In this document: piece by piece, positions 319-19,540 of the stretch
How positions within the stretch are numbered: position 1 is the first letter of the stretch
Layout: every line of letters starts with the position of its first letter
DNA from: Thalassotalea euphylliae
Lineage (GTDB): Bacteria > Pseudomonadota > Gammaproteobacteria > Enterobacterales > Alteromonadaceae
Direction of reading: 5' to 3'
NCBI RefSeq assembly: GCF_003390375.1
Contig: NZ_QUOT01000001.1
Span: 1,927,822-1,951,821, forward strand
Length of the DNA stretch: 24,000 nt
Notes under the pieces: generated by a model
Seen by the model: only the letters and a program-made list of their open reading frames with translations
Databases searched by the model: none
What the model was told of the DNA's origin: nothing
Program-made: the position numbers and the translations under genes

Positions 319-1974
319 ATGTTAAATTACTTAACTCTACTTCCAGTTAAAACCCGCCTGACAATTGGCTTTGGCGTTATCTTGCTACTAATGTTGGTGT
401 TAACCACACTTGGCATCCAGAAAGTGAATGTGATCGATCACACACTGACTGAGATTACCGATATCAACTCAGTCAAACAGCGATACGCAATTAACTATCG
501 TGGCAGTGTGCATGACCGCGCGATTGCTATCAGAGATGTAGCCAACGCAAGAAACAACGCCGAGGTTCAATCATTTGAACGTGAAATCAACCAATTAGCA
601 GGATTTTATCGAGAATCCGAACGCTCGATGCAGCAAATGCTTACCGAAGCCCCCAGCAATTTTAGTAGCCAAGAACGCAGTATTTTGGAAAAAATTAACC
701 GTATTCAAGCCCGTACATTACCGATTGTTGAAAACATTATTCAATTGAAAAAGAGTAATCAACTGAGTGAAATTAACAACTTAGTGCTTGAACAAGCCAG
801 ACCTGCATTTATCGATTGGTTAGCAGCGATCAACGAATTTATCGATTATCAGGAAGCGGCTAACCAAAAAGCAACGCCAGCCGCACGCGATGTTGCCAGT
901 GGCTTCCAAGAATTAATGCTCGCGCTTACTGCCGTCGCCTTAGTGATTAGCCTATTCGTTGGTTACCTGATTGAGAAAAGCATGCGCCGCTCACTTGGTG
1001 GTGAACCATACGAAGCGGCAGGTGCGCTAGCAAAAATAGCACAAGGCGATTTAACCAGTCAGGTAACAACAAATGATGCCAACAGTTTGCTTGCCTCACT
1101 CAACAGCATGCAAAGCACCCTAAGTGGCATTGTTGCTAATATTGTTAACGCCGCCGACCAACTAAGCCATCAGACCATGACGGTATCTTCAGGCTCAGAA
1201 CAAGCTTATGAAGCCGCGCAAAACCAAGCGTCATTAACCACAGATACCGCAGCTCGCCTAGAAACTATGCGCGACAACATAGACCAAGTATCGCAAACAG
1301 CATCTCGCACTGAAGAGAACTCAAGTTCAACCGCTAGCTATGCCAAGCAAGGTCGTGAAGCAATCAATGCCAGTGCCAAGGAAATGGAGCGTATTTCTGA
1401 TACCGTAAACGGCACGGTAGAGCAAATCAGACGCCTTGAAGAACGGACAAAAGAAATTGGCGGTATTGCCAATGTGATTAGCGGTATTTCAGAGCAAACC
1501 AACTTGTTGGCATTAAACGCCGCTATTGAGGCAGCGCGTGCAGGTGAATCAGGACGAGGCTTTGCCGTAGTCGCCGATGAGGTTCGTCAACTGGCTAAGC
1601 GTACCGGTGAAGCCACCGCCGAGATTGAAAATATGATCGGCCAAGTACAAGCTGAAACAGCGGCTTCCGTAGCAGCAATGGAAACAACTCAGCCACAAGT
1701 TGAAAATGGCCGTTCACTGACCTTGCAGGCAACCGATTTATTGGAAAATATTGAACAACAAGCGACAGATTCACTGGCGCGTATTCAAGAATTAGCCAGT
1801 GCTGCAAGCGATCAAGTAACCACCATAGGTGATATAGCTCATACTATGGAGCAAATTGCCCAAATGTCAGAAAACTCAATCACTTCGCTACAAGCGAACA
1901 ATAGTGCAACAAACTCACTACATGAATTGTCTGAACAACTAAAATCTGATGTGGGTTACTTTAAACTTAAATAA
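319..1974 (+). CDS. Methyl-accepting chemotaxis protein (TM, four-helix-bundle-type periplasmic sensor, TM, HAMP, MCP signalling domain)
   Basis: 551-aa ORF. N-terminal TM ([20 protein letters not shown]) and second TM ([20 protein letters not shown]). Canonical MCP hairpin-tip motif [38 protein letters not shown]. Followed by a strong terminator. Confidence 0.92.
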
Positions 1975-1993
1975 AATAAGCAGTTAACAAAAC

Positions 1994-2023
1994 AAAAGGC
2001 CAGCAAAACTGCTGGCCTTTTTT
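1994..2023. terminator. Bidirectional rho-independent terminator between the convergent MCP and DUF2063 genes
   Basis: aaaaGGCCAGC-aaaact-GCTGGCCtttttt. 7-bp GC-rich stem at 1998-2004/2011-2017, flanked by an A-run and a T-run, so it works on either strand. Confidence 0.75.
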
Positions 2024-2067
2024 GTATATTTCGGCGTTTTATCTAATACTAGCCACAAACTAACAGC

Positions 2068-2859
2068 CTAACTCGCCGTTCTAAATTGATAGATCAGCCC
2101 TTGTTGTAACCAGGTTTGGATGCTTTGCACTGCAAACACAGGCACTTGCTCAGGCTCATGCCATGTTAGCAAGCCTTCACAAACGTCAGCAAAGTCTGCA
2201 CCTTGTAAGTACTGCTCAATCATATAGCGCTCGTCAGCTTCTAATGATCTAAATTCGGTTAAACGGTCGTGATTACGCCATAGCAACCAATGTTGCTCTT
2301 CGGCATGCTCAGTAGCTGGTGATGGTGCTTGATTACCTTTAATTGCCTGCCAACTGCGCACCGCATTATAACGCTCACTAAAGAGTTGCATGCTTGGGTG
2401 GAAACGTATTTGAATCGTCGGCCATAACTCAGGTGCAATTGCTGCTAGGTCTTGCGGCTGAGCACGCGCAATATCTGCAGCATCAAAGGCTGCCAATAAT
2501 AAGCGCTCGAAACGCGCTAATTCGGCTAATATCGGGTGCTCACTAAAAGGCGCATTATTGGCGAGATACTCTGGAATAAACTGGCAATAATGGCGCAATG
2601 AATCAAATTTTGATGGATAGGCATCAAGGTAGCCCGCAAACATTTGATCAAATAGCTCATCGCCTAAATACAAGCCAAGAATCTCGTGGTCGGTTTCAAC
2701 CACTTCTTGTAATCGAATACGATACGCGTTGCCATAAATAGACACGCGTTGCTCAGCGCTGATATTGCCTTGATCATTTACAACATGCTCGGCGAATGGG
2801 CCATTGCCATGCAGTAAAAAGTGCAGGAAGTCTTGTTGAATTTGTTTAAGAGAACTCAT
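2068..2859 (-). CDS. DUF2063-family protein, BufC/HvfC-like partner of MNIO RiPP maturases
   Basis: 263-aa ORF. N-terminal pattern typical of DUF2063: LQ..F...LL, then RVSIYGNAYRIRLQEVVETDHEILGLYLGDELFDQMFAGYLDAYPSKFDSLRHYCQFIPEYL. SD GAGGT lies 8 nt upstream of the ATG. Starts 15 nt after the DUF692 stop on the same strand. Confidence 0.8.
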   Translation of the reverse strand: MSSLKQIQQDFLHFLLHGNGPFAEHVVNDQGNISAEQRVSIYGNAYRIRLQEVVETDHEILGLYLGDELFDQMFAGYLDAYPSKFDSLRHYCQFIPEYLANNAPFSEHPILAELARFERLLLAAFDAADIARAQPQDLAAIAPELWPTIQIRFHPSMQLFSERYNAVRSWQAIKGNQAPSPATEHAEEQHWLLWRNHDRLTEFRSLEADERYMIEQYLQGADFADVCEGLLTWHEPEQVPVFAVQSIQTWLQQGLIYQFRTAS

Positions 2860-2874
2860 TTAACCAACCTCAAA

Positions 2875-3726
2875 CTAGGCTTCAATCTGGCTGCGAATAT
2901 TGGGAATATGCTGCTCAGCAATATTTCGTGCGATGTTTAGCTCTGCCGTTAAGTCAGCAAAACTGGGAATATTCGCATCGCGCTCAATCATAGTGCTTAC
3001 CGGGCCAAACAATTTTAATGCTTCTTTGTATAGTTGCCAGACAGGGTCTGGCACATCGTGATCATGGGTATCAACCACATAGTCTCCGAAGTCAGAATGC
3101 CCTGCCAAATGGAACTGCTGCACACGTTCTGGGTTTAACGAGCGTAAATATTCCATGGCATCAAAATCATGGTTGCGCGCACTTACGTAGATATTATTGA
3201 TATCTAATAACATGCGGCAGTCAGCTTGCTCACAAACTTCACGATAAAACTGCCATTCATTCATCTCGTCAGTTTTATACGTTAAATAGCTGGATACATT
3301 TTCCATCAGCATTTGACGGCCCATAAAGTCTTGTACTTGCTTAATGCGCTCAACAACGTGGGTTAACGACTCTTCTGTGTATGGCAGTGGCAATAAATCA
3401 TGACTGTTAACACCACCAACTGATGTGAAACAAAGGTGATCAGAGAACCACTCTGGCTGCACATCAGCAATTAAGGTTTTTAACTTGGTTAAATACTCTA
3501 TATTCAATGGATCAGTTGAACCAATCGACATTGACACCCCATGCATCACAATAGGGTAGTTTTCTCTGATTTGGTCAAGGTAATATCTTGGCTTACCACC
3601 AGCAACCATATAGTTTTCTGAAATGATTTCAAACCAGTCAACGTCTGGTTTTTGTTCAATCACATCATTGTAATGATTCGTTCGCAGGCCAAGGCCAAAT
3701 CCTAGAAATTTCTTCAAAATAGTCAC
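2875..3726 (-). CDS. DUF692 / MNIO-family (multinuclear non-heme iron oxidative) enzyme, BufB/MbnB-like RiPP maturase
   Basis: 283-aa ORF with the characteristic DUF692/UPF0276 N-terminus (GFGLGLRTNHYNDV...DWFEIISENYM....GGKPRYYLDQIRENYPIVMHGVSMSIGSTDPL) and later H/D/E-rich metal-ligand motifs (FSDHLCF, LMENVSSY, FHLAGHSD, VVDTHDHDV). The predicted start is GTG with a weak SD, so the exact start is uncertain. Confidence 0.85.
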   Translation of the reverse strand: MTILKKFLGFGLGLRTNHYNDVIEQKPDVDWFEIISENYMVAGGKPRYYLDQIRENYPIVMHGVSMSIGSTDPLNIEYLTKLKTLIADVQPEWFSDHLCFTSVGGVNSHDLLPLPYTEESLTHVVERIKQVQDFMGRQMLMENVSSYLTYKTDEMNEWQFYREVCEQADCRMLLDINNIYVSARNHDFDAMEYLRSLNPERVQQFHLAGHSDFGDYVVDTHDHDVPDPVWQLYKEALKLFGPVSTMIERDANIPSFADLTAELNIARNIAEQHIPNIRSQIEA

Positions 3727-3918
3727 TCGTGTCTAGTAATAGAGATAGTGTAAATGAGCTTGAGGGTAGATAAAAACTCAAAGGCTAATGATGACAGGAA
3801 AGTTGTCAGTTTGTTGATCTATTCTATGCGAATTGCTCGCAAAGTTTATACATGGTAAATCAAAGTAAAGCAGCAATTGAGTTTGTCGCTAGATTCAACT
3901 GACTACTTTACTTTATCG

Positions 3919-3953
3919 CAAGGCTGTTTAGCGTAAGTAACTAAACAACCTTG
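3919..3953 (-). terminator. Stem-loop in the precursor-maturase spacer. Candidate partial terminator or mRNA-stabilising hairpin.
   Basis: On the transcribed (minus) strand: CAAGGUUGUUUAG-uuacuuacg-CUAAACAGCCUUG. This is a 13-bp stem with one G-U pair and a 9-nt loop, 35 nt after the precursor stop. No clean U-tract follows, so it is not a canonical intrinsic terminator. Confidence 0.4.
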
Positions 3954-3987
3954 TCTAAACATACTAACTAATACTTTTTAGTTAATA

Positions 3988-4467
3988 TTATTTGCCTACA
4001 GTACCGCCGATATCGCCACATGATTTCGCTGTGGTAGAAACAAAGCCTGTACCTTTACAAGTTGCATGGCCTGCACACGCGTTTTCAGCAGTTTTACAGT
4101 CGTTGTGACCTTTACAAACGTTAACACCGTAACAATGTACTAAGTTAGCCGTTGAAATTTGGCCAGTCCATTCATCAGAAACGGTACCGCCAACATCTTT
4201 ACACGCTTTAGTTGGCATGCCTACAAAGCCAGTACCTTTACAAGATGCTTGACCTGCACACGCGTGCTCAGCTGTTTTACAGTCATTGTGGCCTTTACAT
4301 ACATTAACGTCGTAACAGTGAACCATTTCAACTGTGTTAGTGTTTGTTGCTGCTACTGTGCTGCCAGCAGAACCTGAGTTAGAAGCAGTTGCACCACAAC
4401 CAACTAAAGTAGCTGCCGCTAATGCCATTGCTGCGCCTGATAAATGAGTCTTTGTTGCTTTTTTCAT
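3988..4467 (-). CDS. Cys-rich exported RiPP precursor, bufferin/DUF2282-like, with a lipoprotein signal peptide and two tandem core domains
   Basis: 159-aa ORF with SD GGAGA 4 nt upstream of the ATG. Signal peptide MKKATKTHLSGAAMALAAATLVG|C has an L-V-G-C lipobox. Two 49-aa repeats match the DUF2282 pattern CYG...K..NDC......CAG.........G.....C..(I/V)GG. First gene of an operon with DUF692 and DUF2063. Confidence 0.85.
   Translation of the reverse strand: MKKATKTHLSGAAMALAAATLVGCGATASNSGSAGSTVAATNTNTVEMVHCYDVNVCKGHNDCKTAEHACAGQASCKGTGFVGMPTKACKDVGGTVSDEWTGQISTANLVHCYGVNVCKGHNDCKTAENACAGHATCKGTGFVSTTAKSCGDIGGTVGK
3997..4326 (-). repeat. Intragenic tandem duplication (period 183 nt / 61 aa) of the Cys-rich core
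   Basis: aa 48-96 MVHCYDVNVCKGHNDCKTAEHACAGQASCKGTGFVGMPTKACKDVGGTV versus aa 109-157 LVHCYGVNVCKGHNDCKTAENACAGHATCKGTGFVSTTAKSCGDIGGTV. All 6 Cys align. The similarity is also visible at DNA level (4180-4326 versus 3997-4143). Confidence 0.9.
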
Positions 4468-4561
4468 AATTTCTCCGGGGCTTAAACGCAGTATTGAAAA
4501 TTGTTCAAATACCGCTTGTTTTTCATGAGTCAGGGCATAAGACCCGACACCGTCAAAAAAA

Positions 4562-4589
4562 TTGACACAAATTGTAAAAAAATTTTAAT
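4562..4589 (+). promoter_or_regulatory. Candidate sigma70 promoter in the divergent region, pointing toward the Aer-like gene
   Basis: TTGACA (4562-4567), 16-nt spacer, TTTAAT (4584-4589). This would give a leader of about 320 nt for the gene starting at 4919. Sequence match only. Confidence 0.3.
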
Positions 4590-4918
4590 CGAATAAAAGA
4601 TAAGCATAGTCGATACAACTAAATTTTGATGCCAAGGCTACTTCAACCTCCTTAAAAACAAGCATTAATGACATGCTGATACAAAAAAGCGATGTGCAAC
4701 AAGTGATGATTGCGAAGGATTTAAACTCGGAAAATTTAAGTGCAAATAGTCTAATTGCATCTATAGTTTAGTTAAGCCGAAGTTTAATAAGGTATTAGAT
4801 TTACTCCATTTTTATATCAGTTTTATTTAACCTCGTTGTTTTGCAGGTAGCTAAATACAACGCAATCAGACGTCCAATGAATTAAGCCTTTGCTTAACTC
4901 GCATTAAAGGAAGACAGC

Positions 4919-6490
4919 GTGAATAAAGACCGTCATATCAGCCAAAAAGAATATCAATTCCCTACCAGTCAACGACTTATCTCATCAACCGACAAGCGCG
5001 GCGTAATTACCCACTGTAACGAGGCTTTTGTCGAAGTTAGTGGTTTTACCTGCGACGAGCTTATCGGCAGTAATCACAACATTGTTCGCCACCCTGATAT
5101 GCCAAGTGTCGTGTTCAAAGAGATGTGGGAAACCTTACGCGCTGGCAAAATATGGATGGGAATTGTTAAAAATCGACGCAAAAACGGCGATCACTACTGG
5201 GTATCAGCATTCGTTACCCCGATCTTTGAAGGCGATGATATCGTTGGTTACGAATCAGTGAGGGTTAACGCTTCTGAGCCAGAAAAGCAGCGAGCTAGCC
5301 AAGCATATCAAAGGTTGCAACAAAATAAGTCCGCACTGCCAATTAGCGACACAATTCGCCACTTTACTCGGCAAATAAGACCTTTTATCGTCGGCGGCCT
5401 TGCCTGTGTTGGCGCTGGCTGGCTCACCAACTCTACAGAATTGATGCTCATTGGCCCAGCGGTGATGGTGCTGTGTGGATATTGGAGCATTAAGAGTCAG
5501 CAAAAGTCATGGTCATTGTTTTTAAATATTGCGCCCGATGCCTACAAAGATACTACCGTAGCGCAAACTTACTTTAATGCTAACCAAGCACAGGCACGTG
5601 CTAAGCTAGCGCTAATTTGCGAAATAGCCCGCGGCAGAACCGGCCTAACAAGAATTGACGACGCCTCTGTGGTGCTTGCCGAAGTTGCCGAAACAACCCA
5701 CTTTCAAGCAGAAAAAACCAGCCAAGTTATTGAACAGCAAGAAACAGCAGTACAAGTCATTGCTTCCGCTATTAGTGAAATGTCGAGCGCCATTCAAGAA
5801 GTTACCGAGCGTGTTGAAGGTAACGCAAGTAGCGCTAAAGAAGCTGCGGCAAGTGTAAATAACGGTAACCAGCAGGCTAAGCAAGCCGCAAAATCCATTG
5901 AGGAACTGAAAAATTCAGTGACTTCCATCGCCAGCACAGTAAAAGACTTAGCCGAATCGACAGAAGAAATTAATCAAGCGGCAACCATGATTTCATCCAT
6001 AGCGGAGCAAACTAATTTACTGGCCTTAAACGCCGCTATTGAGGCAGCCCGCGCGGGTGAGCAAGGTCGCGGCTTTGCGGTGGTAGCGGATGAAGTGCGC
6101 AGCTTGGCAATGCGTACACGCGAATCAACCGAAGAAATTCATAGCATTGTTAACAAGTTGATCACTCGCTCGCAAAAAGCTGCAGAAGTGTCTGAACAAG
6201 GCTTAGAAGAAGCGGAAAAAGGCATGCAAATTGTCGATGGCACCCGCATTGCTTTGGGTGAAATTAATAAAGCTGTCGATAATATTGCTGATATGACGAT
6301 TCAGATGTCGTCTGCCGTTGAAGAACAAAGCGCAGTAGCTGAGCATATTAACCAACAAGTGGGTGACATCGCACAAGGTGCATCAGTCGCTAAAAAGGCA
6401 GCAGAAGAATCGTTTGGCGCCAGCCAGCAGCTAAAAGATACCATCGCGAATGTCAGCTCATTGATTCGTCGCTTTAATACCTCAGCTTAA
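4919..6490 (+). CDS. aer: Aerotaxis/energy-taxis receptor, Aer-like (N-terminal FAD-type PAS, membrane hairpin, HAMP, MCP signalling domain)
   Basis: 523-aa ORF with a GTG start preceded by AGGAAG. The PAS segment ...[53 protein letters not shown] closely follows the E. coli Aer PAS signature (NMVRHPDMP...[15 protein letters not shown]). Central hydrophobic hairpin [14 protein letters not shown]...[16 protein letters not shown] tip [35 protein letters not shown]. Confidence 0.88.
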
Positions 6491-6575
6491 CTAACTTCAG
6501 GTTTACTCGCACTCGCAACTGGGTTTTAAGTGAGAAACGAGGTTTAAAGGCCGTTCGCCTAGAGGCAATTATCGC

Positions 6576-8492
6576 CTATTGGCTGCCGGCAGCTGATTGC
6601 TGACACTCTTGGTTTATAAGCGTGTTAAAGTCGTTTCTCGGCATGGGTTTGTATAAGAAATAGCCTTGTGCACTTTGGCAACGTTCACGCATCACATAGT
6701 CGAGCGTTGCCTGATCTTCCACCCCTTCAGCAATTACCGACAATTCCAAGTTGTGACCAATATCAATAATGGTGCGCGTGATCGCTGCACTTTGTTTATT
6801 GGTGGTAACTCCCTGTAAAAACGCCTTATCAATTTTCAAGTAATCAATGGGCAGAATTTGCAGATAACTAAATGACGAATACCCTTTGCCGAAATCATCA
6901 AGCGCAAACGCAATGCCGCGGGTTCGAAGTTGCTCCATCGTACGGCTGATGACTTCTTTATTTTCCATGAAAATAGATTCAGTTAGCTCAATAATCAATT
7001 GGCTGCCGCATTCATTGCTTTCATCACATTTACTCAATAGATAGCGAATAAGCTCGGCATCTTGAAATTCAATAATCGATAAATTAATCGCGAGTTTTAA
7101 ATGACTAAGCCCTTGGCTTTGCCACTGACTGATGCATTCAAACGCGGAGTCGATAGCCTTCTTACCGACTTGGCTGATAAGCCCTGTAGTTTCTGCGACC
7201 GGAATAAAAATATCGGGAGGAACAGAACTTCCGTCTGGCTTAAACCAGCGCATCAATATTTCTGCGCCGATGATCTCACCAGTGCTTAAATCAATTTTTG
7301 GCTGGAAATAAGGCTCAAGTTCATCTGCCTGCAAAGCTTCGCGCAATTCACGTTCAACTTTTACTTGCAACATCGCTTGCTGCTCTAGGCTTTGATCATA
7401 AAACTGGTAGTTATTTTTGCCTTGTGCCTTTGCTTGGTACATCGCCATATCGGCTTTCAAAATTAAGTGCTCAGCGCTGTTGTCGTCTTGTGGAAAGCAG
7501 GCAACGCCGATACTACAACTGACAAAGTGCTGACGGCCTGAAAGACAAAATGGTTCGGTTAAAATCGCCAGCAATTCCTCACACAGTGCGCGAATGTCCT
7601 GCTTACTTGCGACCGACTCCAGCAACAAGACAAATTCATCGCCACCTAGGCGAGCAAGTGTATCTTGCTCGCGCAAACGAGATTTAACACGTTGTACTAG
7701 TTCAATCAGTAATTCATCACCGGCTTTATGCCCTTCGGTATCATTAACGCGCTTAAAGTTATCCAAATCAATAAACAAAACCGCTAACAGCTGCTCTGAG
7801 CGCTTTGCTAATGCAAGTGCGTGTTCAACGCGATCTAATAACAAGTTGCGATTAGGCAGACCCGTCAAAGCATCGTGGTAGGCTTGGTGTTGAATTAAAT
7901 CTTCACTTTCTTTTTGCTGCGTAATGTCACGAAAACACCACACACGACCGATGAGTTTACCGTCAGCTATTTGTGGCAAAGAGCGATATTCAAAAAAGCG
8001 GTTACTGCTCAGTTCGATCACCCCGTTGATGTGGCGTGTTGGGTCTTCTTCTAGTTTTTGCTTAACTTGAACCGCTTGGTTTGGGTATTTAAATAATGAT
8101 AGTAGCGCCGACCAACGTTGATATTCAGTAACACCATTTTGCAGGAAAAATGTTTGCCCCATGCAATTGATGCTCATGACATTACCATCAACATCGTAAA
8201 CCACAATGTTTTCGCCCGTCGCATCAAAGGTAGCGTTGAGCACGCTTAACGATGATTGCAGTTGGTTTTTTGTTTCGCTGAGTTCGCCAAGTTGATTTTT
8301 TAGCAGCGCGTTGCGCTCATTGAGCTCTTCCGATATCAAAAATAAAGAGCGTTCAAGGGTGCTAACATCTTGCTCGTATCCAACATAAGCTTCAGACACC
8401 GCAGCAAAATAATCTTGGTGCTCTGTTTTTAATGAATCGTCAATGCCAAAGCGTTTAAGTTGGCGCTTGGCTAGCTTGTGTAACTCAGTCAC
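6576..8492 (-). CDS. PAS-GGDEF-EAL c-di-GMP turnover protein (diguanylate cyclase/phosphodiesterase)
   Basis: 638-aa ORF. N-terminal coiled-coil and PAS-like region. Intact GGDEF (RLGGDEF, 7632-7646) with an RxxD I-site (REQD) five residues upstream. EAL-domain motifs EILMRW, DDFGKGYSSFSYL, KIDKAF, EGVED and QGYFLYKP. GTG start overlaps the FIST stop by 8 nt. Confidence 0.9.
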   Translation of the reverse strand: MTELHKLAKRQLKRFGIDDSLKTEHQDYFAAVSEAYVGYEQDVSTLERSLFLISEELNERNALLKNQLGELSETKNQLQSSLSVLNATFDATGENIVVYDVDGNVMSINCMGQTFFLQNGVTEYQRWSALLSLFKYPNQAVQVKQKLEEDPTRHINGVIELSSNRFFEYRSLPQIADGKLIGRVWCFRDITQQKESEDLIQHQAYHDALTGLPNRNLLLDRVEHALALAKRSEQLLAVLFIDLDNFKRVNDTEGHKAGDELLIELVQRVKSRLREQDTLARLGGDEFVLLLESVASKQDIRALCEELLAILTEPFCLSGRQHFVSCSIGVACFPQDDNSAEHLILKADMAMYQAKAQGKNNYQFYDQSLEQQAMLQVKVERELREALQADELEPYFQPKIDLSTGEIIGAEILMRWFKPDGSSVPPDIFIPVAETTGLISQVGKKAIDSAFECISQWQSQGLSHLKLAINLSIIEFQDAELIRYLLSKCDESNECGSQLIIELTESIFMENKEVISRTMEQLRTRGIAFALDDFGKGYSSFSYLQILPIDYLKIDKAFLQGVTTNKQSAAITRTIIDIGHNLELSVIAEGVEDQATLDYVMRERCQSAQGYFLYKPMPRNDFNTLINQECQQSAAGSQ

Positions 8493-9624
8493 CCGACAGC
8501 TCTGATAACAAGGTGATGGTCATGGTTTGGTTATGCAAACCACAACGGCCAGCAGGCACAATGGGGGAAATTTCGCCATAAGAGTAAAAACCTGTCATCG
8601 CACAATTTACTGGTAAGGTTTCTTCAACAATTTCGAGCTCTTCTTCTACGCGCTGAGCCAGCACTAGCCTGCGGCCAACGCAGCTCATTAATATTGCCAA
8701 TTGAGGTTCTATTTGATCAAAAAAAGTGAGTGCTTGCTCAGCTGAATCTTGCGCACCATCGACAAGATGATCATAATTTGCGCGCATTAGTTGGCAACTT
8801 GCCCCCTCTGGCATATTGCCCGCAAAAATCATACTTTGGCGTTGTTCATCAATATTTAAAATCGTGCGCACCACAGGTTGCTCTTGCTGCTCAGTTTTCA
8901 TCGCAAGCGGAAAACGTAGCGCAGAGGCTGGCAAGTTTTCGGCATGCTCACCTAAAAACTCTTTATACAATTCGAGCGCTGGCTTACCGTCAATTTCAAA
9001 TAACTCATTATCTTCTGAACGAGTAATTTCGCGCATGGGGCCAAACTCTCGCCAACCGCCAAGGTGACCATGCCCAACCACTAACGCATCGCCGTATAAA
9101 CCAACGATGACAACTAAGCCACTGACTTTTTGGTCATTATGCCAAACAATGGTTTCTTGAAATTTAGCTGCATCCCCCGCTAACCCACCGGTAACAACAA
9201 CATTTTCTGGCAGCACGCCACTAATCCCAGCAATGAGCTCAGAGCCGTTAATTGCCTGACCGTCAGAAATAACAAAGGCGTGCTTAAGCCCTTGTGCTGG
9301 AATACCACGCGCTAACGCTTGGCCAAGTTGAAAGCTATTATTAAAATCACTCGCTAGCTGACTAAAAACTTCGACATTTACACGGTCAAATTCAATCGCT
9401 GTTAAACACAAGGTGTCATCGTGTAACTGCGCACCTTGTATCTCACCACTGGTGGTGCAGCCGACAATTTGTGCATTTGGGAAAGCTTGTTGAATATCAG
9501 TGTAAAGCGTTTGATCTAAGGCAAAGTCACGATTGCCATACGTCATCACCAACTGCGCAGACGAATGTTGGACAAGTAGTGTTGACCAAGCAGACGCTCG
9601 ATAAATTGACTGAAATGTTTTCAT
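8485..9624 (-). CDS. FIST (N- and C-domain) sensory protein
   Basis: 379-aa cytoplasmic ORF with FIST-like motifs (IVGCTTSGEI, VVVTGGLAGD, FYSYGEISP). Directly upstream of, and overlapping, the GGDEF-EAL gene. Confidence 0.75.
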   Translation of the reverse strand: MKTFQSIYRASAWSTLLVQHSSAQLVMTYGNRDFALDQTLYTDIQQAFPNAQIVGCTTSGEIQGAQLHDDTLCLTAIEFDRVNVEVFSQLASDFNNSFQLGQALARGIPAQGLKHAFVISDGQAINGSELIAGISGVLPENVVVTGGLAGDAAKFQETIVWHNDQKVSGLVVIVGLYGDALVVGHGHLGGWREFGPMREITRSEDNELFEIDGKPALELYKEFLGEHAENLPASALRFPLAMKTEQQEQPVVRTILNIDEQRQSMIFAGNMPEGASCQLMRANYDHLVDGAQDSAEQALTFFDQIEPQLAILMSCVGRRLVLAQRVEEELEIVEETLPVNCAMTGFYSYGEISPIVPAGRCGLHNQTMTITLLSELSGD

Positions 9625-12226: not shown

Positions 12227-12937
12227 ATGGAATGGGACGATATTTATCAGCTGATAAAATGTCAGCGAGAAGCCGAACTCGTCAATTTGTTTGAGCAACA
12301 GCTCATTAAAATTGGCATTAAAAGCTTTGGTTACTTTCAGTTTAACGCACAACACCCCAGTGAATTAAATGTGATTAGTACCTACCCTCAACAATGGGTC
12401 GATGAATATATCGCCAAGAACTACCTACAACTAGACACTACCATTCCACTATCTGTTGTGAGCAATTCGCCTGTGCCCTGGTCATACGCGAAACAATGCA
12501 GTAACGGCAAAGCGCAATTTGGCTTTTGGCAGCAGGTCAAAGCTCACAAACTCAATGCTGGCGCTTCAATACCACTAAGTAATAATAAACTTCAAATAGC
12601 TGGTTTAGGTTGCGCCATAGACAATGAGGCAGAAACTAAATGGCTTGAACAGTATGGCAAGCAACTTGAGATCACCTCTACCGTATTTCATCAAAAACTT
12701 TGTGCCTTAAAAAGTTGCCCAAATGTTGCCATTCAGCAGCTAAAATTAACCCATCGAGAAATAGAGTGCGGTAAATGGTTAAGTAATGGCTGCACATATA
12801 ACGAGGTCGGTAAAAAGCTCAATATTTCTGAACGAACAGCGAGATTTCATTTAGAGAATATAAAGCTTAAGCTGGGGGCAAAAAATAAGGAGCAAGTAAT
12901 ATCTAAACTCGTCGCACATCAGATCATTACTCCTTAA
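12227..12937 (+). CDS. LuxR-family transcriptional regulator with an N-terminal autoinducer-binding-type domain (LuxR solo within this window)
   Basis: 236-aa ORF. C-terminal GerE/LuxR HTH (LTHREIECGKWLSNGCTYNEVGKKLNISERTARFHLENIKLKLGAKNKEQ). N-terminal YPQQW57VDEY61...LD70T...PW85 matches the spacing of conserved AHL-pocket residues. Confidence 0.85.
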   Translation: MEWDDIYQLIKCQREAELVNLFEQQLIKIGIKSFGYFQFNAQHPSELNVISTYPQQWVDEYIAKNYLQLDTTIPLSVVSNSPVPWSYAKQCSNGKAQFGFWQQVKAHKLNAGASIPLSNNKLQIAGLGCAIDNEAETKWLEQYGKQLEITSTVFHQKLCALKSCPNVAIQQLKLTHREIECGKWLSNGCTYNEVGKKLNISERTARFHLENIKLKLGAKNKEQVISKLVAHQIITP

Positions 12938-13430: not shown

Positions 13431-14174
13431 TTATTGCACCTTGTACTGCTGACGATATTTTTTGACTAATTTATGGGTGCATATACCACCAATGACCCCC
13501 GGCAGCACCCAAAACATAATCTGCCACTGATCACTTACAATATTGGCGAGTAGTTGGCGACCACCAAAAGCAAAAAACGCGGTGTAAGCCCCAATACCTG
13601 CTCCAATAATATGACGCAAATGCTGAATTAGCCATTCTCTTGGTTGAATAGACGGTTTAAAAATATAGTGCAGTAATTGGTAGCTATTCACCAAACACAA
13701 AGCGCTAAACACCTGCAATAAGACAAAAGAATATTTAGTACCTAAATAACCTACATAAGGCGAAATTACCGCCATAGTGAGAATTGGCAACAGGTGCGGC
13801 CATTGACGCAGTGCCTGTCGGTTTTCACGACATTTCAATACGAGTACCGAGTGGCGTGTACTGTTAAGCACCAGTAGCGACAACATCAGTAAGAACCAAG
13901 CAAACATTTCGCTCCACCACACCAGCTTATCGGCCTCGGCACCAGATAATGAAGATGAAGGATCTTTAATGGCTAACGGATCGAATAACACCATTAAAGT
14001 GATAGCAACCCCAGATAAACTGACAGCGAGCATCCCAAACTCAAACCACTTGCCTGACCGCTTGTGAAAATGCCCGCCTTTTTTGGCAATAACAGGCAAC
14101 CAAAAAGTGATTAATGACACACTGCCAACCACAATGTGTAAAAACAGTAAAACGGAATAAATTGAATAGTACAT
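13431..14174 (-). CDS. Polytopic inner-membrane protein of unknown function (about 6 TM)
   Basis: 247-aa ORF with repeated hydrophobic segments and positive loops (KKGGHFHKRSGK). Ends 31 nt upstream of the MaoC-like start on the same strand. No family recognised by eye. Confidence 0.6.
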   Translation of the reverse strand: MYYSIYSVLLFLHIVVGSVSLITFWLPVIAKKGGHFHKRSGKWFEFGMLAVSLSGVAITLMVLFDPLAIKDPSSSLSGAEADKLVWWSEMFAWFLLMLSLLVLNSTRHSVLVLKCRENRQALRQWPHLLPILTMAVISPYVGYLGTKYSFVLLQVFSALCLVNSYQLLHYIFKPSIQPREWLIQHLRHIIGAGIGAYTAFFAFGGRQLLANIVSDQWQIMFWVLPGVIGGICTHKLVKKYRQQYKVQ

Positions 14175-17719: not shown

Positions 17720-19540
17720 CTATGCAGTATTTCTTTTACGCAAATGATTACTGTTAGCTGACAAGGATAACACCAGTACGGATAAGGCGAGTAGCATTAG
17801 CAAAACACTGCTGGGTGTAGGTACTGACACCGCGAATGCTTCAATCGGGTTAATTGCACTTCTTACCGCTAAAGTCGTTGGCGGTGGTGGTGTATTATTA
17901 TTAAAGTCAACCACGAAACTCTCTCCTACTTGCAAGTCAAATCCTCCTAACGGGAACATATTGACAAACAAGTTAGGCGATTGAAATAAATCTGCGCCAG
18001 CTGCTAATACATTGCCAATACCTATTTGACGATCAAAACCAAGGATGTCGAAGTTAATTTGTAATAAGTCGATCATCAGTTCTAAATCAAAGTCTAGTAA
18101 TGTTTCATTGGTCAAATTAGCATCAAGGAAAAAGGTTGGTGTAACTGTGGTAACGTCATCAAGAAAAGTGATGTCAGGTAATAAATCCCAAGCAGAGATC
18201 AATTCGGTTACCATTTCTCCACCCACCATCACCGCTTTATCAAAGGCCATAGACACAAACAGTGTTGGCTCTAATTCAAAGTCTTGTTTTAAGTCGATGG
18301 TTGGCCCCATTTGCACATCAATAATATCGTAGCCGATGCTGCCAATGGTACCGATGGGCGCACTAGAGCCAAACAAGCCTGGTACACCTGCCGCGCTGGC
18401 AACAATATTGTCGATGTCAATAAACAAATCCACCAAGTCGTCTTGACCACTGGCTTTAAGGGTATTTGTGTTGGTATCTAGACCTCCACTGGCATTAGGC
18501 TGCGGAAGATGTAAAGTCGCTTCCACTATACCTAGAGCATCTACACTAAATGGAAAGCCATTGGCTTGATCGGGAAAGCCGAATACTGATGGTTGCTGGC
18601 CAAGCAGTGAGACACCACCTTCGCCATCTTGGTTAAAGGATAGTATTGATGCTCTTTCATTAATGTTAAATGGTGTTGAACCTGTGCTACAGCCCGCAGG
18701 TATAATGCAGGCTTCTCCCCCCACAGTTCCACTTAGTTCCATAATTGCATCAACATTAAGCGCTAGGTTGGCAAAAGACGTATCGAGCGTATTGGCGCCA
18801 GCCAATAGGCTGTTAGCATTAAAATTGATTGGGTTAGTTTTATCTAAATTTAACGTATCAGGAAGATCTAACGTGGCTTGATAAGACACTGTGGCATCTA
18901 CTGAGCCACTGCCAATCTCAATACCAAGTTCAATACCAACTCTACCATCAGTAGAGCCTTGTACAGCGACGCCAGTGCGGGTATCCACTTCCAAAAATGA
19001 AGGTGGCGCAGTGCCTAGTGGTGCTACAGGCAAACGTGCCGATTGGCCATTACGACAAACACTCGACGAGAAGCTCTTTCGACATAGAGAGAAAGCCGCA
19101 TCATAAGCCGCCCGTCTTGTTAAATCTGCCGCACGGGCAATTTTGCAAGCCACAGCAAACCGACTGCAACTGCGCACCGATGGCCGGCTTCCCAATTTAG
19201 GAACAAATATGCGCCCGCTTTGGCCATTGATACAAGTGCTTGAGGAATTCCCCAAGGCTCGACAACCAGCAAAAGCAATATCGTAAGCCGCCCGCAACGG
19301 GTTAATCACGTTAACATCTTCTCGACCAGCAATCAGATCAATATCTACTTGTTGATCTTGCCACTGAGCACCCAGAAAACTTCGCTGATCTAACATAAAC
19401 GAGTCACCCGTATCCCAAATACTTTGGCCAGATGTGGTAAAGCTAAGGTCATATTGCAGCAGATTTGCCTGCACAGAATAGGAAATCCCTGTTGAAATAA
19501 GCACAGCCAATTGGCAACAAACGCGCAAAAACTGAGCCAT
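17720..19540 (-). CDS. Large secreted protein of unknown function with a PEP-CTERM-like C-terminal sorting signal
   Basis: 606-aa ORF. N-terminal signal peptide (...LISTGISYSVQA|N). C-terminus VPTPSS + LLMLLALSVLVLSLS + NHLRKRNTA is a variant PEP motif, a TM helix and a basic tail. The body is rich in G/S/T/N/D with no motif I recognise. Confidence 0.65.
   Translation of the reverse strand: MAQFLRVCCQLAVLISTGISYSVQANLLQYDLSFTTSGQSIWDTGDSFMLDQRSFLGAQWQDQQVDIDLIAGREDVNVINPLRAAYDIAFAGCRALGNSSSTCINGQSGRIFVPKLGSRPSVRSCSRFAVACKIARAADLTRRAAYDAAFSLCRKSFSSSVCRNGQSARLPVAPLGTAPPSFLEVDTRTGVAVQGSTDGRVGIELGIEIGSGSVDATVSYQATLDLPDTLNLDKTNPINFNANSLLAGANTLDTSFANLALNVDAIMELSGTVGGEACIIPAGCSTGSTPFNINERASILSFNQDGEGGVSLLGQQPSVFGFPDQANGFPFSVDALGIVEATLHLPQPNASGGLDTNTNTLKASGQDDLVDLFIDIDNIVASAAGVPGLFGSSAPIGTIGSIGYDIIDVQMGPTIDLKQDFELEPTLFVSMAFDKAVMVGGEMVTELISAWDLLPDITFLDDVTTVTPTFFLDANLTNETLLDFDLELMIDLLQINFDILGFDRQIGIGNVLAAGADLFQSPNLFVNMFPLGGFDLQVGESFVVDFNNNTPPPPTTLAVRSAINPIEAFAVSVPTPSSVLLMLLALSVLVLSLSANSNHLRKRNTA
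19004..19297 (-). repeat. Internal duplicated Cys-pair module near the N-terminus of the 606-aa protein
   Basis: aa 82-120 LRAAYDIAFAGCRALGNSSSTCINGQSGRIFVPKLGSRP versus aa 141-179 TRRAAYDAAFSLCRKSFSSSVCRNGQSARLPVAPLGTAP. Shared pattern AAYD.AF..C......SS.C.NGQS.R..V..LG..P. Confidence 0.75.

What the first reader, a model, noticed from the sequence alone, without database searches (positions are those of the whole stretch)
2068..4467. Compact MNIO (DUF692) RiPP operon of the bufferin / DUF2282 type: precursor - maturase - DUF2063 partner
Seen in the sequence: three co-directional minus-strand genes. These are a 159-aa exported protein with 12 Cys (3988..4467), a DUF692-type enzyme (2875..3726) and a DUF2063-type protein (2068..2859). 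The last two are only 15 nt apart, and the operon ends at a strong terminator (1994..2023). Established knowledge: DUF692 proteins are the MNIO enzymes (MbnB of methanobactin, TglH, ChrH and others) that oxidatively modify Cys in ribosomal peptides, usually with a partner protein. The DUF2282-DUF692-DUF2063 trio was recently characterised in Caulobacter as the bufferin system. Those are Sec-exported RiPPs whose Cys are converted to 5-thiooxazoles and which chelate copper in the periplasm. Inference: this locus makes a post-translationally modified, metal-binding envelope peptide or protein. It is the most system-like, least housekeeping element of the window, and most genome annotations still label all three genes as hypothetical or DUF.
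Basis: partly seen in the sequence, partly recalled or inferred. Interest (0 to 1): 0.85.

Follow-up and report, generated by a model that had tools for sequence, protein, structure and literature searches.

The report
Lipid-anchored double bufferin (Buf2) operon
This is an ordinary, intact member of the known bufferin family: three genes that make a membrane-tethered, cysteine-rich protein whose cysteines an iron enzyme most likely converts into copper-binding rings.

Summary
The three minus-strand genes exist as described. The locus is a bufferin gene cluster, but of the Buf2 (BufA2, "BUF_6/12Cys") subtype, not the DUF2282 (Buf1) subtype.

- **Precursor (3988..4467):** it passes the NCBIfam BufA2 equivalog with two matched stretches. 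It is a tandem duplication of the 6-Cys domain behind a lipoprotein signal peptide (LVGC), so it has 13 Cys, not 12.
- **Enzyme (2875..3726):** it passes the BufB maturase equivalog. All metal-ligand motifs and the catalytic Asp are present.
- **Partner (2068..2859):** it is a DUF2063 protein. Its confident model matches the MNIO partner proteins TglI and NGO1945.
- **Prior description:** the 12-Cys and lipoprotein variants were already reported bioinformatically (Microb Genom 2025). NCBI now names close homologues.
- **Conservation:** 80 of 82 related loci keep the A-B-C order without further conserved genes.

Two features I did not find in the papers read:
- A stable hairpin between the precursor and maturase genes, in about 85% of loci against 5% of control segments.
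- A bipartite promoter-like motif, cTGAAAt-N17-GGTCTT, upstream of the precursor across genera. The window carries a diverged copy.

Thiooxazole chemistry, copper binding and outer-membrane anchoring are inferred, not shown. This is a new member of a known kind, of modest interest.

The parts
4539..4567 (-). Candidate promoter TGTCAA-N17-GGTCTT. It is a diverged copy of the motif cTGAAAt-N17-GGTCTT found upstream of two-domain bufA2 genes in other genera.
   Evidence: It is the only match to the relaxed motif in the 24-kb window, on either strand. It lies inside a block of about 68 nt (4519..4586) that is nearly identical to T. euphylliae, while the rest of the intergenic region is not conserved. 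The family motif is 265-fold enriched upstream of bufA2, and the unbiased GGTCT-anchored profile supports it.
3988..4467 (-). bufA2: precursor, 159 aa, a lipoprotein with two 6-Cys bufferin domains
   Evidence: NF050166 BufA2 equivalog scores 136.9 bits against a cutoff of 60, with 2 stretches. It is 93% identical to a T. euphylliae protein that UniRef names 'Lipoprotein'. All 12 domain Cys are invariant in 30 homologues.
4396..4467 (-). Signal peptide, residues 1-24, ending in the lipobox L-V-G-C (4396..4407). Cys24 is the predicted lipidation site and Gly is at +2.
   Evidence: Read directly from the sequence. A lipobox is present in 111 of 120 closest homologues, and Asp at +2 occurs in only 1 of 111. 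No signal-peptide predictor was available.
4330..4395 (-). Low-complexity Ala/Thr/Ser/Gly/Asn tether, residues 25-46
   Evidence: Composition. Residues 1-42 have pLDDT below 50. Sequence is variable but length is conserved among homologues, with a median of 21 residues.
4180..4329 (-). Bufferin domain 1, residues 47-96, Cys51/57/63/70/76/89
   Evidence: Scanned alone, this domain marginally reaches Pfam DUF2282 (24.4 bits against 22.4).
3997..4146 (-). Bufferin domain 2, residues 108-157, Cys112/118/124/131/137/150
   Evidence: It is 37/50 identical to domain 1. Its Cys residues are invariant.
3861..3987 (-). Three stem-loops directly after the precursor stop codon: 3962..3987 (10 bp), 3919..3953 (14 bp) and 3861..3915 (20 bp). 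None has a canonical U-tract.
   Evidence: The RNA fold of the 269-nt gap has z = -5.98, with 0 of 200 shuffles folding as well. The third stem is kept in T. euphylliae with a T-A to G-C double change, and the 3919..3953 stem lies in sequence that has no counterpart in T. euphylliae. A hairpin at this position is a family-wide feature.
2875..3726 (-). bufB: MNIO (DUF692) maturase, 283 aa
   Evidence: PF05114 scores 383 bits. NF050167 MNIO_BufB scores 388 bits against a cutoff of 310. The closest solved structure is 3BWW, E = 1.6e-50. H62, H97, E142, D175, H206, H210, D219, H221, E248 and D250 are invariant in 81 sequences.
2068..2859 (-). bufC: DUF2063 partner protein (HvfC/BufC family, also called PME1), 263 aa
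   Evidence: PF09836 scores 54.7 bits against 27.2. The AlphaFold2 model has pLDDT 92. Foldseek matches TglI (8HI7_A) and NGO1945 (3DEE) with probability 1.0, and gives a weak match to the RRE protein TbiB1.
1994..2021 (.). Bidirectional intrinsic terminator that closes the operon and the convergent chemoreceptor gene
   Evidence: A 12-bp stem with 6 G-C pairs and T-rich tails on both strands.

Best explanation
The locus is a three-gene Buf2-type bufferin (captophorin) biosynthetic operon, bufA2-bufB-bufC, probably from a Thalassotalea-like marine gammaproteobacterium.

**Shown here**
- Gene identities, by profiles above curated cutoffs.
- The duplicated 6-Cys architecture and the lipobox.
- Intact MNIO ligand motifs.
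- A TglI/NGO1945-like fold for the partner protein.
- Strict A-B-C synteny in relatives.

**Inferred from the characterised Caulobacter Buf1/Buf2 and related systems**
1. In the cytoplasm the BufB-BufC complex binds the precursor. BufC acts as the recognition and chaperone subunit. BufB is the multi-iron oxidase.
2. BufB performs a 4-electron oxidation of the four central Cys of each domain to 5-thiooxazoles, eight in total.
3. The first and last Cys of each domain stay as thiols and form one disulfide per domain after export.
4. The modified protein is exported by Sec.
5. It is diacylglyceryl-modified and cleaved at Cys24 by the lipoprotein pathway.
6. Because +2 is Gly rather than Asp, it is probably passed to the outer membrane. 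There it hangs on a tether of about 22 residues in the periplasm.
7. In that position it sequesters Cu(I)/Cu(II) with its thiooxazole thiolates.

**Expression (inferred)**
- Transcription starts at an ECF-sigma-like promoter (TGTCAA-N17-GGTCTT).
- The sigma factor for this promoter is not encoded in the window.
- The conserved hairpins after bufA2 end or stabilise most transcripts, so precursor mRNA exceeds enzyme mRNA.
For: **Profiles**
- BufA2 NF050166 scores 136.9 against a cutoff of 60.
- BufB NF050167 scores 388 against 310.
- MNIO PF05114 scores 383 bits.
- DUF2063 PF09836 scores 54.7 against 27.2.

**Precursor architecture**
- Two repeats are 74% identical.
- All 12 Cys and the HCY, GHNDC and GFV motifs are invariant in 30 homologues.
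- A lipobox is present in 111 of 120 homologues, with almost no Asp at +2.

**Enzyme**
- All ligand motifs and the ERD catalytic Asp are invariant in 81 BufBs.
- These residues align with the solved structure 3BWW.
- The catalytic role of the equivalent Asp is shown for FonB-D249 (PMC13097082).

**Partner**
- The model has pLDDT 92.
- It matches TglI, NGO1945 and, weakly, an RRE protein.

**Synteny**
- A-B-C order holds in 80 of 82 loci from more than 15 genera. The commonest B-C junctions in this longest-ORF estimate are 8- and 4-nt overlaps.
- The wider neighbourhood is not conserved.

**Chemistry and function, from the literature**
- In Buf2, CysI and CysVI are unmodified and the central Cys each lose 4 Da. 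Absorbance is at 305 nm. The system is copper-induced and copper-protective. Buf2 clusters lack DoxX (PMC11626156).
- 12-Cys duplicated forms make up about 10% of Buf2 precursors and lipoprotein forms about 16% (PMC12452194).
- 5-thiooxazole is the product in every MNIO-PME1 cluster characterised so far (PMC13097082).

**Hairpin and promoter**
- Hairpin.
- Promoter.
Against: - No experiment bears on this locus, and no 12-Cys or lipidated bufferin has been characterised in the papers read.
- Even for Caulobacter Buf2 the heterocycle structure was inferred from mass and UV by analogy with Buf1.
- The window has no copper regulator, copper pump, DoxX or sigma/anti-sigma gene. The copper link therefore rests on homology alone.
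- Position 251 of BufB is Ala. Most relatives (63 of 81) and Caulobacter BufB2 have the Asp proposed to contact the substrate Lys.
- The window's -35-like element (TGTCAA) differs from the family consensus (TGAAAT).
- Most intercistronic hairpins, including the window's, lack a U-tract. Termination is therefore not demonstrated.
- The precursor model is only moderately confident (pLDDT 62).
- Outer-membrane sorting uses the E. coli +2 rule, which is not universal.
Confidence: 0.85

Rival explanations
1. The biosynthesis is the same, but the physiological role is different. The tethered thiooxazole protein would serve copper acquisition or delivery to envelope cuproenzymes (a chalkophore- or chaperone-like role). 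Alternatively it would buffer another thiophilic metal or an oxidant, rather than detoxify excess copper.
For: - No copper-resistance or copper-sensing gene lies near the operon, in the window or in relatives.
- In one relative (L003/L086) a periplasmic thioredoxin-like gene sits directly upstream and carries the same promoter motif. This hints at a thiol/redox envelope regulon.
- MerC-Buf2 fusions in mercury loci show that some bufferins deal with other metals (PMC12452194).
Against: Every characterised relative binds copper, and protects against copper or is copper-induced wherever that was tested. These are Buf1, Buf2, oxazolin, fontiphorin and bulbicupramide. No evidence specific to this locus favours another ligand.
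Confidence: 0.12
2. The precursor is an ordinary disulfide-rich lipoprotein that is not modified, or the operon is decaying. BufB and BufC would then act on another substrate or be inactive.
For: - Stand-alone bufferin precursor genes without an adjacent MNIO exist (PMC12452194). One orphan two-domain copy was seen here (L050).
- BufB has Ala instead of Asp at the proposed substrate-contact position 251.
- The A-B gap of 261 nt is unusually long, against a family median of about 80 nt.
Against: - All three ORFs are intact.
- All catalytic residues are conserved.
- All 12 Cys are invariant.
- Adjacency holds in 80 of 82 loci.
- Ala or Gly at position 251 occurs in 18 of 81 otherwise normal clusters.
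- The extra gap length is accounted for by added hairpin sequence.
Confidence: 0.03

Closest known systems
Bufferin 2 (buf2ABC, CCNA_03001-02999) of Caulobacter vibrioides; family Buf2 / BUF_6/12Cys / NCBIfam BufA2 (PMC11626156, PMC12452194)
   Same: - Three-gene A-B-C cluster without DoxX.
- Same 6-Cys domain and an exported precursor.
- BufB-type MNIO and a DUF2063 partner.
- Expected modification of the four central Cys, with an outer disulfide.
   Different: - The domain is duplicated here (12 Cys). That form makes up about 10% of the family.
- The signal peptide is a lipoprotein type, as in about 16% of the family.
- BufB has Ala at the Asp251-equivalent position.
- The promoter motif here is cTGAAAt-N17-GGTCTT-like. 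From my own recollection, which I did not check, this differs from the Caulobacter SigF promoter.
Bufferin 1 (buf1ABCD; DUF2282/PF10048) of Caulobacter vibrioides and the gig operon of Cupriavidus metallidurans
   Same: - Related small fold.
- Sec export.
- MNIO plus DUF2063 maturation to 5-thiooxazoles.
- Copper chelation in the periplasm.
   Different: - Buf1 has 4 conserved Cys, with 2 modified.
- It usually comes with DoxX and often with sigma/anti-sigma genes.
- The window protein fails PF10048 as a whole, and only its domain 1 alone barely passes.
Oxazolin (HvfABC), fontiphorin (FonABC), gonophorin and bulbicupramide (MmrABC): EGKCG-repeat 'Lys-Cys' captophorins
   Same: - Closely related MNIO. 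HvfB model NF003818 scores 284 bits, and 3BWW is the best solved relative.
- The partner protein is of the same DUF2063/PME1 type. NGO1945 (3DEE) is among the best fold matches to the BufC model.
- 5-thiooxazole products that bind copper.
   Different: - Their precursors are unstructured EGKCG repeats rather than folded 6-Cys domains.
- The HvfB and HvfC cutoffs are not reached here (284 against 360, and 29 against 142).
- They have Phe rather than Asp or Ala after the catalytic Asp.
Lipidated MNIO RiPPs (DybA and chryseobasin-like peptides; PMC13056109)
   Same: An MNIO-modified precursor carrying a lipobox, so that the general lipoprotein pathway supplies export, lipidation and leader removal. 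That paper lists a subset of bufferins as predicted RiPP-lipoproteins.
   Different: - A different MNIO clade (ChrH-like).
- Different chemistry (macrocycle plus hydantoin).
- No DUF2063 partner.
- Lipidation was shown experimentally for DybA, not for any bufferin.
Methanobactin (MbnABC)
   Same: An MNIO acting on Cys of a ribosomal peptide to make a copper-binding heterocycle.
   Different: - The MbnB model scores far below cutoff (65.9 against 325).
- The partner is different (MbnC).
- The product is oxazolone-thioamide.
- It is a secreted chalkophore used for copper uptake.

Membership tests
Buf2 bufferin cluster (BufA2 / BUF_6/12Cys) | Precursor matches the BufA2 profile above the curated cutoff | tested here: met
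   NF050166 scores 136.9 bits against a cutoff of 60, E = 1.9e-40, with two matched stretches.
Buf2 bufferin cluster (BufA2 / BUF_6/12Cys) | Six (or 2 x 6) conserved Cys in the core | tested here: met
   There are 12 domain Cys in two 6-Cys repeats. All 12 are invariant in 30 homologues, and all 120 closest homologues have 12 domain Cys.
Buf2 bufferin cluster (BufA2 / BUF_6/12Cys) | N-terminal Sec-type signal peptide on the precursor | tested here: met
   The N-terminus has a Lys-rich region, a hydrophobic core and the lipobox LVGC. A lipobox is present in 111 of 120 homologues. UniRef names homologues 'Lipoprotein'. This rests on a pattern match only, because no SignalP run was possible.
Buf2 bufferin cluster (BufA2 / BUF_6/12Cys) | Adjacent MNIO of the BufB type with an intact metal site | tested here: met
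   NF050167 scores 388 against 310. PF05114 covers the full model length. The His, Asp and Glu motifs and the catalytic Asp250 are invariant.
Buf2 bufferin cluster (BufA2 / BUF_6/12Cys) | Adjacent DUF2063 partner with an RRE-like C-terminal domain | tested here: met
   PF09836 scores 54.7 against 27.2. The model (pLDDT 92) matches TglI and NGO1945 with probability 1.0, and matches the RRE protein TbiB1 weakly (probability 0.89).
Buf2 bufferin cluster (BufA2 / BUF_6/12Cys) | Cys converted to 5-thiooxazole (-4 Da each, about 305 nm absorbance) and copper binding | not testable with these tools
   This needs co-expression, mass spectrometry, UV, NMR and metal titration.
Buf2 bufferin cluster (BufA2 / BUF_6/12Cys) | Non-defining signature of 'Cys-Lys' MNIOs: Asp after the catalytic Asp (BufB2-Asp251) | tested here: not met
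   The window has Ala251. Among 81 sequences (80 relatives plus the window's own), 63 have Asp, 10 Ala and 8 Gly. The literature describes this as a selectivity determinant, not a family criterion.
Buf1 bufferin (DUF2282, PF10048) | Pfam PF10048 match above the gathering score | tested here: inconclusive
   The full-length protein gives no hit even at E<=10. Domain 1 alone scores 24.4 bits against 22.4. Domain 2 alone gives no hit.
Buf1 bufferin (DUF2282, PF10048) | Four conserved Cys per core | tested here: not met
   There are six per domain.
Oxazolin / Hvf-type (EGKCG) captophorins | EGKCG-repeat precursor, with HvfB and HvfC equivalog scores reached | tested here: not met
   The precursor has no EGKCG repeat. 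HvfB scores 284 against 360 and HvfC 29 against 142.
Methanobactin (Mbn) | MbnB equivalog score | tested here: not met
   TIGR04159 scores 65.9 against 325.

The most novel reading that the evidence does not exclude
The two-domain lipoprotein bufferins of marine Gammaproteobacteria form a distinct functional subclass. In this reading they are outer-membrane-anchored, eight-thiooxazole metal sponges. They would be transcribed from a conserved ECF-type promoter (cTGAAAt-N17-GGTCTT) belonging to an undefined envelope metal/thiol-stress regulon. The sigma factor of that regulon would be encoded elsewhere in the genome. An intercistronic hairpin would set the precursor-to-enzyme ratio. None of these three points is reported in the bufferin papers I read.
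Probability: 0.3. Interest if true: 0.5.

Novelty: new member of a known kind. Interest (0 to 1): 0.3.

Why it matters
[quoted passage not shown] They are proposed as a widespread periplasmic copper defence. This locus adds nothing categorically new.

It is, however, a clean and compact example of the uncharacterised subclass that is both duplicated (12 Cys) and lipid-anchored. That makes it a reasonable candidate for three tests:
- whether one BufBC pair processes two folded domains in tandem;
- whether a bufferin is really lipidated, and where it ends up;
- what regulates Buf2 clusters, which, unlike many Buf1 clusters, carry no sigma/anti-sigma genes.

The promoter motif and the intercistronic hairpin found here give concrete handles for the third test.

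Tried and rejected
- **Pfam DUF2282 as the precursor family.** Rejected for the whole protein.
- **Exact-sequence look-up of the window's BufB.** It is not on record, so the source organism is only inferred from 92-93% identity to Thalassotalea euphylliae.
- **Solved structures for the precursor and for BufC by sequence.** None were found. BufC needed a fold search.
- **Foldseek of the precursor model against AFDB.** The library was unavailable. With pLDDT 62 the model was not pursued further.
- **Rfam scan of 1900..5000.** It gave only sub-threshold hits on the terminator. There is no known riboswitch, leader or sRNA in the 5' region or the A-B gap.
- **Sigma-70 promoter scan.** It found nothing upstream of bufA2 and fewer hits than in shuffles.
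- **The 3919..3953 hairpin as a dispersed repeat element.** It has no other copy in the window.
- **Search for an ECF sigma, DoxX or copper genes.** None was found among the window ORFs of at least 110 aa, which were all scanned except two short overlapping ones. None was found in four annotated neighbourhoods of relatives.
- **Literature search linking DUF2063, ECF sigma and copper.** It returned only the Cupriavidus gig paper and a Sinorhizobium ECF paper, and I read neither.
- **Metagenome-wide scan with the promoter motif.** Considered and not run. With only 13-14 specified bases I expected chance hits to dominate.


Full report
**1. Observation**

- 3988..4467, 159 aa
- 2875..3726, 283 aa, GTG start
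- 2068..2859, 263 aa

The B-C spacer is 15 nt and the A-B spacer is 261 nt. A 12-bp G+C-rich stem at 1994..2021 has T-rich tails on both strands. It closes the operon and also closes the convergent chemoreceptor gene 319..1974.

The precursor has 13 Cys, not 12. Cys24 is the last residue of a lipobox (LVGC). The other twelve sit in two repeats, residues 47-96 and 108-157, which are 37/50 identical at the protein level and 113/150 at the DNA level. This points to an old internal duplication rather than a recent one.

**2. What the genes are**

| Gene | Profile result |
|---|---|
| Enzyme (bufB) | PF05114 (MbnB_TglH_ChrH) over the full model, 383 bits |
| Enzyme (bufB) | NCBIfam 'MNIO family bufferin maturase' NF050167, 388 bits, cutoff 310 |
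| Enzyme (bufB) | HvfB 284 (cutoff 360), ApyH, MbnB 65.9 (cutoff 325), ChrH: all below cutoff |
| Partner (bufC) | PF09836 (DUF2063), 54.7 bits, cutoff 27.2 |
| Precursor (bufA2) | No Pfam hit on the full-length protein |
| Precursor (bufA2) | NCBIfam BufA2 NF050166, 136.9 bits, cutoff 60, two matched stretches |

With the threshold relaxed to E<=10, the whole precursor still does not hit DUF2282. Domain 1 scanned alone reaches 24.4 bits against a 22.4-bit cutoff. Domain 2 alone gives nothing. The precursor is therefore Buf2-type, also called 'BUF_6/12Cys'. It is related to DUF2282/Buf1 but is not a member of it.

**3. Literature**

- The PNAS 2024 paper (PMC11626156) defines Buf1 (DUF2282, 4 Cys, buf1ABCD with DoxX) and Buf2 (6 Cys, buf2ABC without DoxX) in Caulobacter.
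  - In Buf2, CysI and CysVI stay unmodified and probably form a disulfide.
  - The central Cys each lose 4.03 Da.
  - The product absorbs near 305 nm.
  - Both operons are copper-induced and protect against copper.
- The 2025 survey (PMC12452194) states the following.
  - About 16% carry lipoprotein signal peptides.
  - Sigma/anti-sigma genes occur in Buf1 clusters but not in Buf2 clusters.
- PMC13056109 lists a subset of bufferins among predicted RiPP-lipoproteins.
- PMC13097082 places BufA2 in the 'Cys-Lys' group of captophorins. It assigns 5-thiooxazole to all the MNIO/DUF2063 clusters it characterised.

The kind of system, including both peculiarities of this precursor, is therefore already described. 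It has been described only bioinformatically for the 12-Cys and lipidated forms.

**4. Relatives**

The closest precursor is 93% identical and comes from Thalassotalea euphylliae. Many others at 60-85% identity come from these genera:
- Shewanella
- Pseudoalteromonas
- Psychrobium
- Paraglaciecola
- Halioglobus
- Marinicella
- Aliikangiella

Several are already named 'BufA2 family periplasmic bufferin-type metallophore' or 'Lipoprotein'.

All 120 listed homologues have 12 domain Cys. Of these, 111 have a lipobox, and the rest have an ordinary signal peptide. Asp at +2 occurs once. In an alignment of 30 homologues, the 12 Cys and the HCY, GHNDC, GFV and D-GG motifs of both domains are invariant. 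The stretch of about 22 residues after the lipobox is variable and low-complexity.

A scan of one genome per species gave 438 confirmed loci, and I kept the best 80. Together with the two T. euphylliae loci, 80 of 82 have bufB and bufC directly downstream of the precursor. The two exceptions are:
- an orphan second copy (L050);
- a contig end (L074), where bufB is cut off and bufC lies beyond the end.

In the longest-ORF estimate, the commonest B-C junctions are 8- and 4-nt overlaps. Wider neighbourhoods differ between genera. They contain no DoxX, sigma factor or copper genes.

**5. Enzyme and partner**

Against the solved structure 3BWW (E = 1.6e-50), the motifs HG-S-S, SDH, EN, D-NN, HLAGH, D-H and ERD align. 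In 81 BufB sequences, these residues are invariant:
- H62
- H97
- E142
- D175
- H206
- H210
- D219
- H221
- E248
- D250

D250 corresponds to the catalytic base shown by mutagenesis in FonB (D249A is inactive). That these His, Asp and Glu residues are the iron ligands is from my knowledge of MbnB and TglH structures. PMC13097082 states only that 'MNIO metal-binding residues' are conserved.

One difference stands out. The residue after the catalytic Asp is Ala in the window, Asp in 63 of 81 sequences, Ala in 10 and Gly in 8. Asp at this site was proposed to contact the Lys that follows each modified Cys.

BufC has no sequence match in the PDB. Its AlphaFold2 model, built from a 33-sequence alignment, has pLDDT 92.1. 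By Foldseek it matches the following:
- TglI, the partner of the MNIO TglH (8HI7_A, E = 3e-7);
- NGO1945 (3DEE, E = 5e-7, TM 0.76 on the target);
- the leader-binding RRE protein TbiB1, weakly, over about 74 residues.

The precursor model is mediocre (pLDDT 62). It shows a disordered N-terminus (residues 1-42) and two small strand/helix units. I did not use it further.

**6. Two features not mentioned in the papers I read**

*(a) A hairpin between bufA2 and bufB*

In the window:
- The 261-nt gap folds far better than shuffles (z = -5.98).
- It contains three stems right after the stop codon: 3962..3987, 3919..3953 and 3861..3915.
- The 20-bp stem is retained in T. euphylliae with a T-A to G-C double change.
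- The 14-bp stem is absent in T. euphylliae.

Across the family:
- The gap is usually 50-125 nt.
- 85% of gaps fold with z < -2.
- Only 5% of equally long control segments, taken just upstream of bufA2, do so.
- The difference is significant (Wilcoxon p = 2e-13, n = 75).
- 76 of 80 gaps have a hairpin of at least 7 bp.
- Only 20 of these are followed by a T-rich tail.

I infer a leaky terminator or a 3'-end-protecting structure that raises precursor mRNA over enzyme mRNA. That logic is known from other RiPP operons (my knowledge). It has not been demonstrated here.

*(b) A bipartite motif upstream of bufA2*

- TGAAA-N17-19-GGTCT occurs in 37 of 81 upstream regions.
- That is 1.83 per kb, against 0.007 per kb elsewhere in 1.9 Mb of loci.
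- When instances are anchored only on GGTCT, positions -23 to -19 read T41, G32, A29, A37 and A41 out of 45.
- The 17-nt spacer is unconserved.
- The layout resembles ECF-sigma promoters (inference). The sigma-70 scan finds nothing there.
- The window carries TGTCAA-N17-GGTCTT at 4567..4539.
- This is the only relaxed match in 24 kb.
- It lies inside a block of about 68 nt that is almost identical to T. euphylliae, in an otherwise diverged intergenic region.
- No sigma factor gene was found among the window ORFs that were scanned, which covers all of at least 110 aa except two short overlapping ones.

**7. Mechanism**

Shown here:
- gene identities;
- the duplicated, lipobox-bearing architecture of the precursor;
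- intact catalytic motifs in the enzyme;
- the fold of the partner protein;
- conserved synteny;
- the hairpin;
- the promoter motif.

Inferred by homology:
1. BufBC converts the four central Cys of each domain into 5-thiooxazoles in the cytoplasm.
2. The protein is exported by Sec and lipidated at Cys24.
3. One disulfide forms per domain.
4. The protein is anchored, probably in the outer membrane because +2 is Gly. This is the E. coli rule, as summarised in PMC13056109.
5. It chelates copper in the periplasm.

The predicted signature on the 136-residue mature polypeptide (about 13.5 kDa before lipidation) is about -36.3 Da.

**8. Verdict**

- The finding is a new member of a known and now routinely annotated kind.
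- Specialists would not be surprised.
- The hairpin and promoter observations are modest additions that would need experiments.
- My interest score is 0.3.

Noticed in passing
window 4919..9624, compared with L002 5300..6000: In Thalassotalea euphylliae the upp-uraA pair lies about 690 nt upstream of bufA2. In the window three signalling genes sit between them: a PAS chemoreceptor (4919..6490, +), a GGDEF-EAL protein (6576..8492, -) and a FIST protein (8485..9624, -). This is an insertion or deletion difference next to the operon.
   Followed up: partly
window 6576..9624 (-): The FIST-domain gene overlaps the start of the GGDEF-EAL gene by 8 nt. It gives a sub-threshold match to the NO sensor NosP (82 bits against a cutoff of 450). 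This may be a ligand-sensing c-di-GMP module.
   Followed up: no
L003 5313..5862 (same locus as L086 7386..7862): In 'Endozoicomonas sp. G2_1' the bufA2 is 84% identical to the window's. There, a signal-peptide-bearing thioredoxin/TlpA-like gene (WCPYC motif) lies directly upstream of bufA2. It is preceded by a strict copy of the TGAAA-N18-GGTCT motif. This hints that the motif marks a small envelope thiol/metal regulon.
   Followed up: partly
L052 1577..2164: Another strict copy of the promoter motif precedes a 175-aa multi-pass membrane protein of unknown function in a Paraglaciecola MAG.
   Followed up: no
L050 versus L064 (Alteromonadaceae bacterium M269): This genome carries two two-domain bufA2 genes. 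One has bufBC next to it and the other is an orphan.
   Followed up: no
window 17720..19540 (-) and 13431..14174 (-): Two sizeable ORFs (606 aa and 247 aa) have no Pfam or NCBIfam match. T. euphylliae has a 247-aa ORF, also without Pfam hits, in what looks like the same position next to the HisKA_3 kinase / LuxR-type response regulator pair; I did not align the two.
   Followed up: no
window 12227..12937 (+): A LuxR-type regulator with an autoinducer-binding domain. No LuxI-type synthase turned up among the window ORFs that were scanned.
   Followed up: no
window 2875..3726, residue 251: BufB has Ala where most relatives (63 of 81) have the Asp proposed to contact the substrate Lys. Ten sequences, the window's own included, have Ala and eight have Gly. 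I did not test whether this tracks with changes in the precursor.
   Followed up: partly
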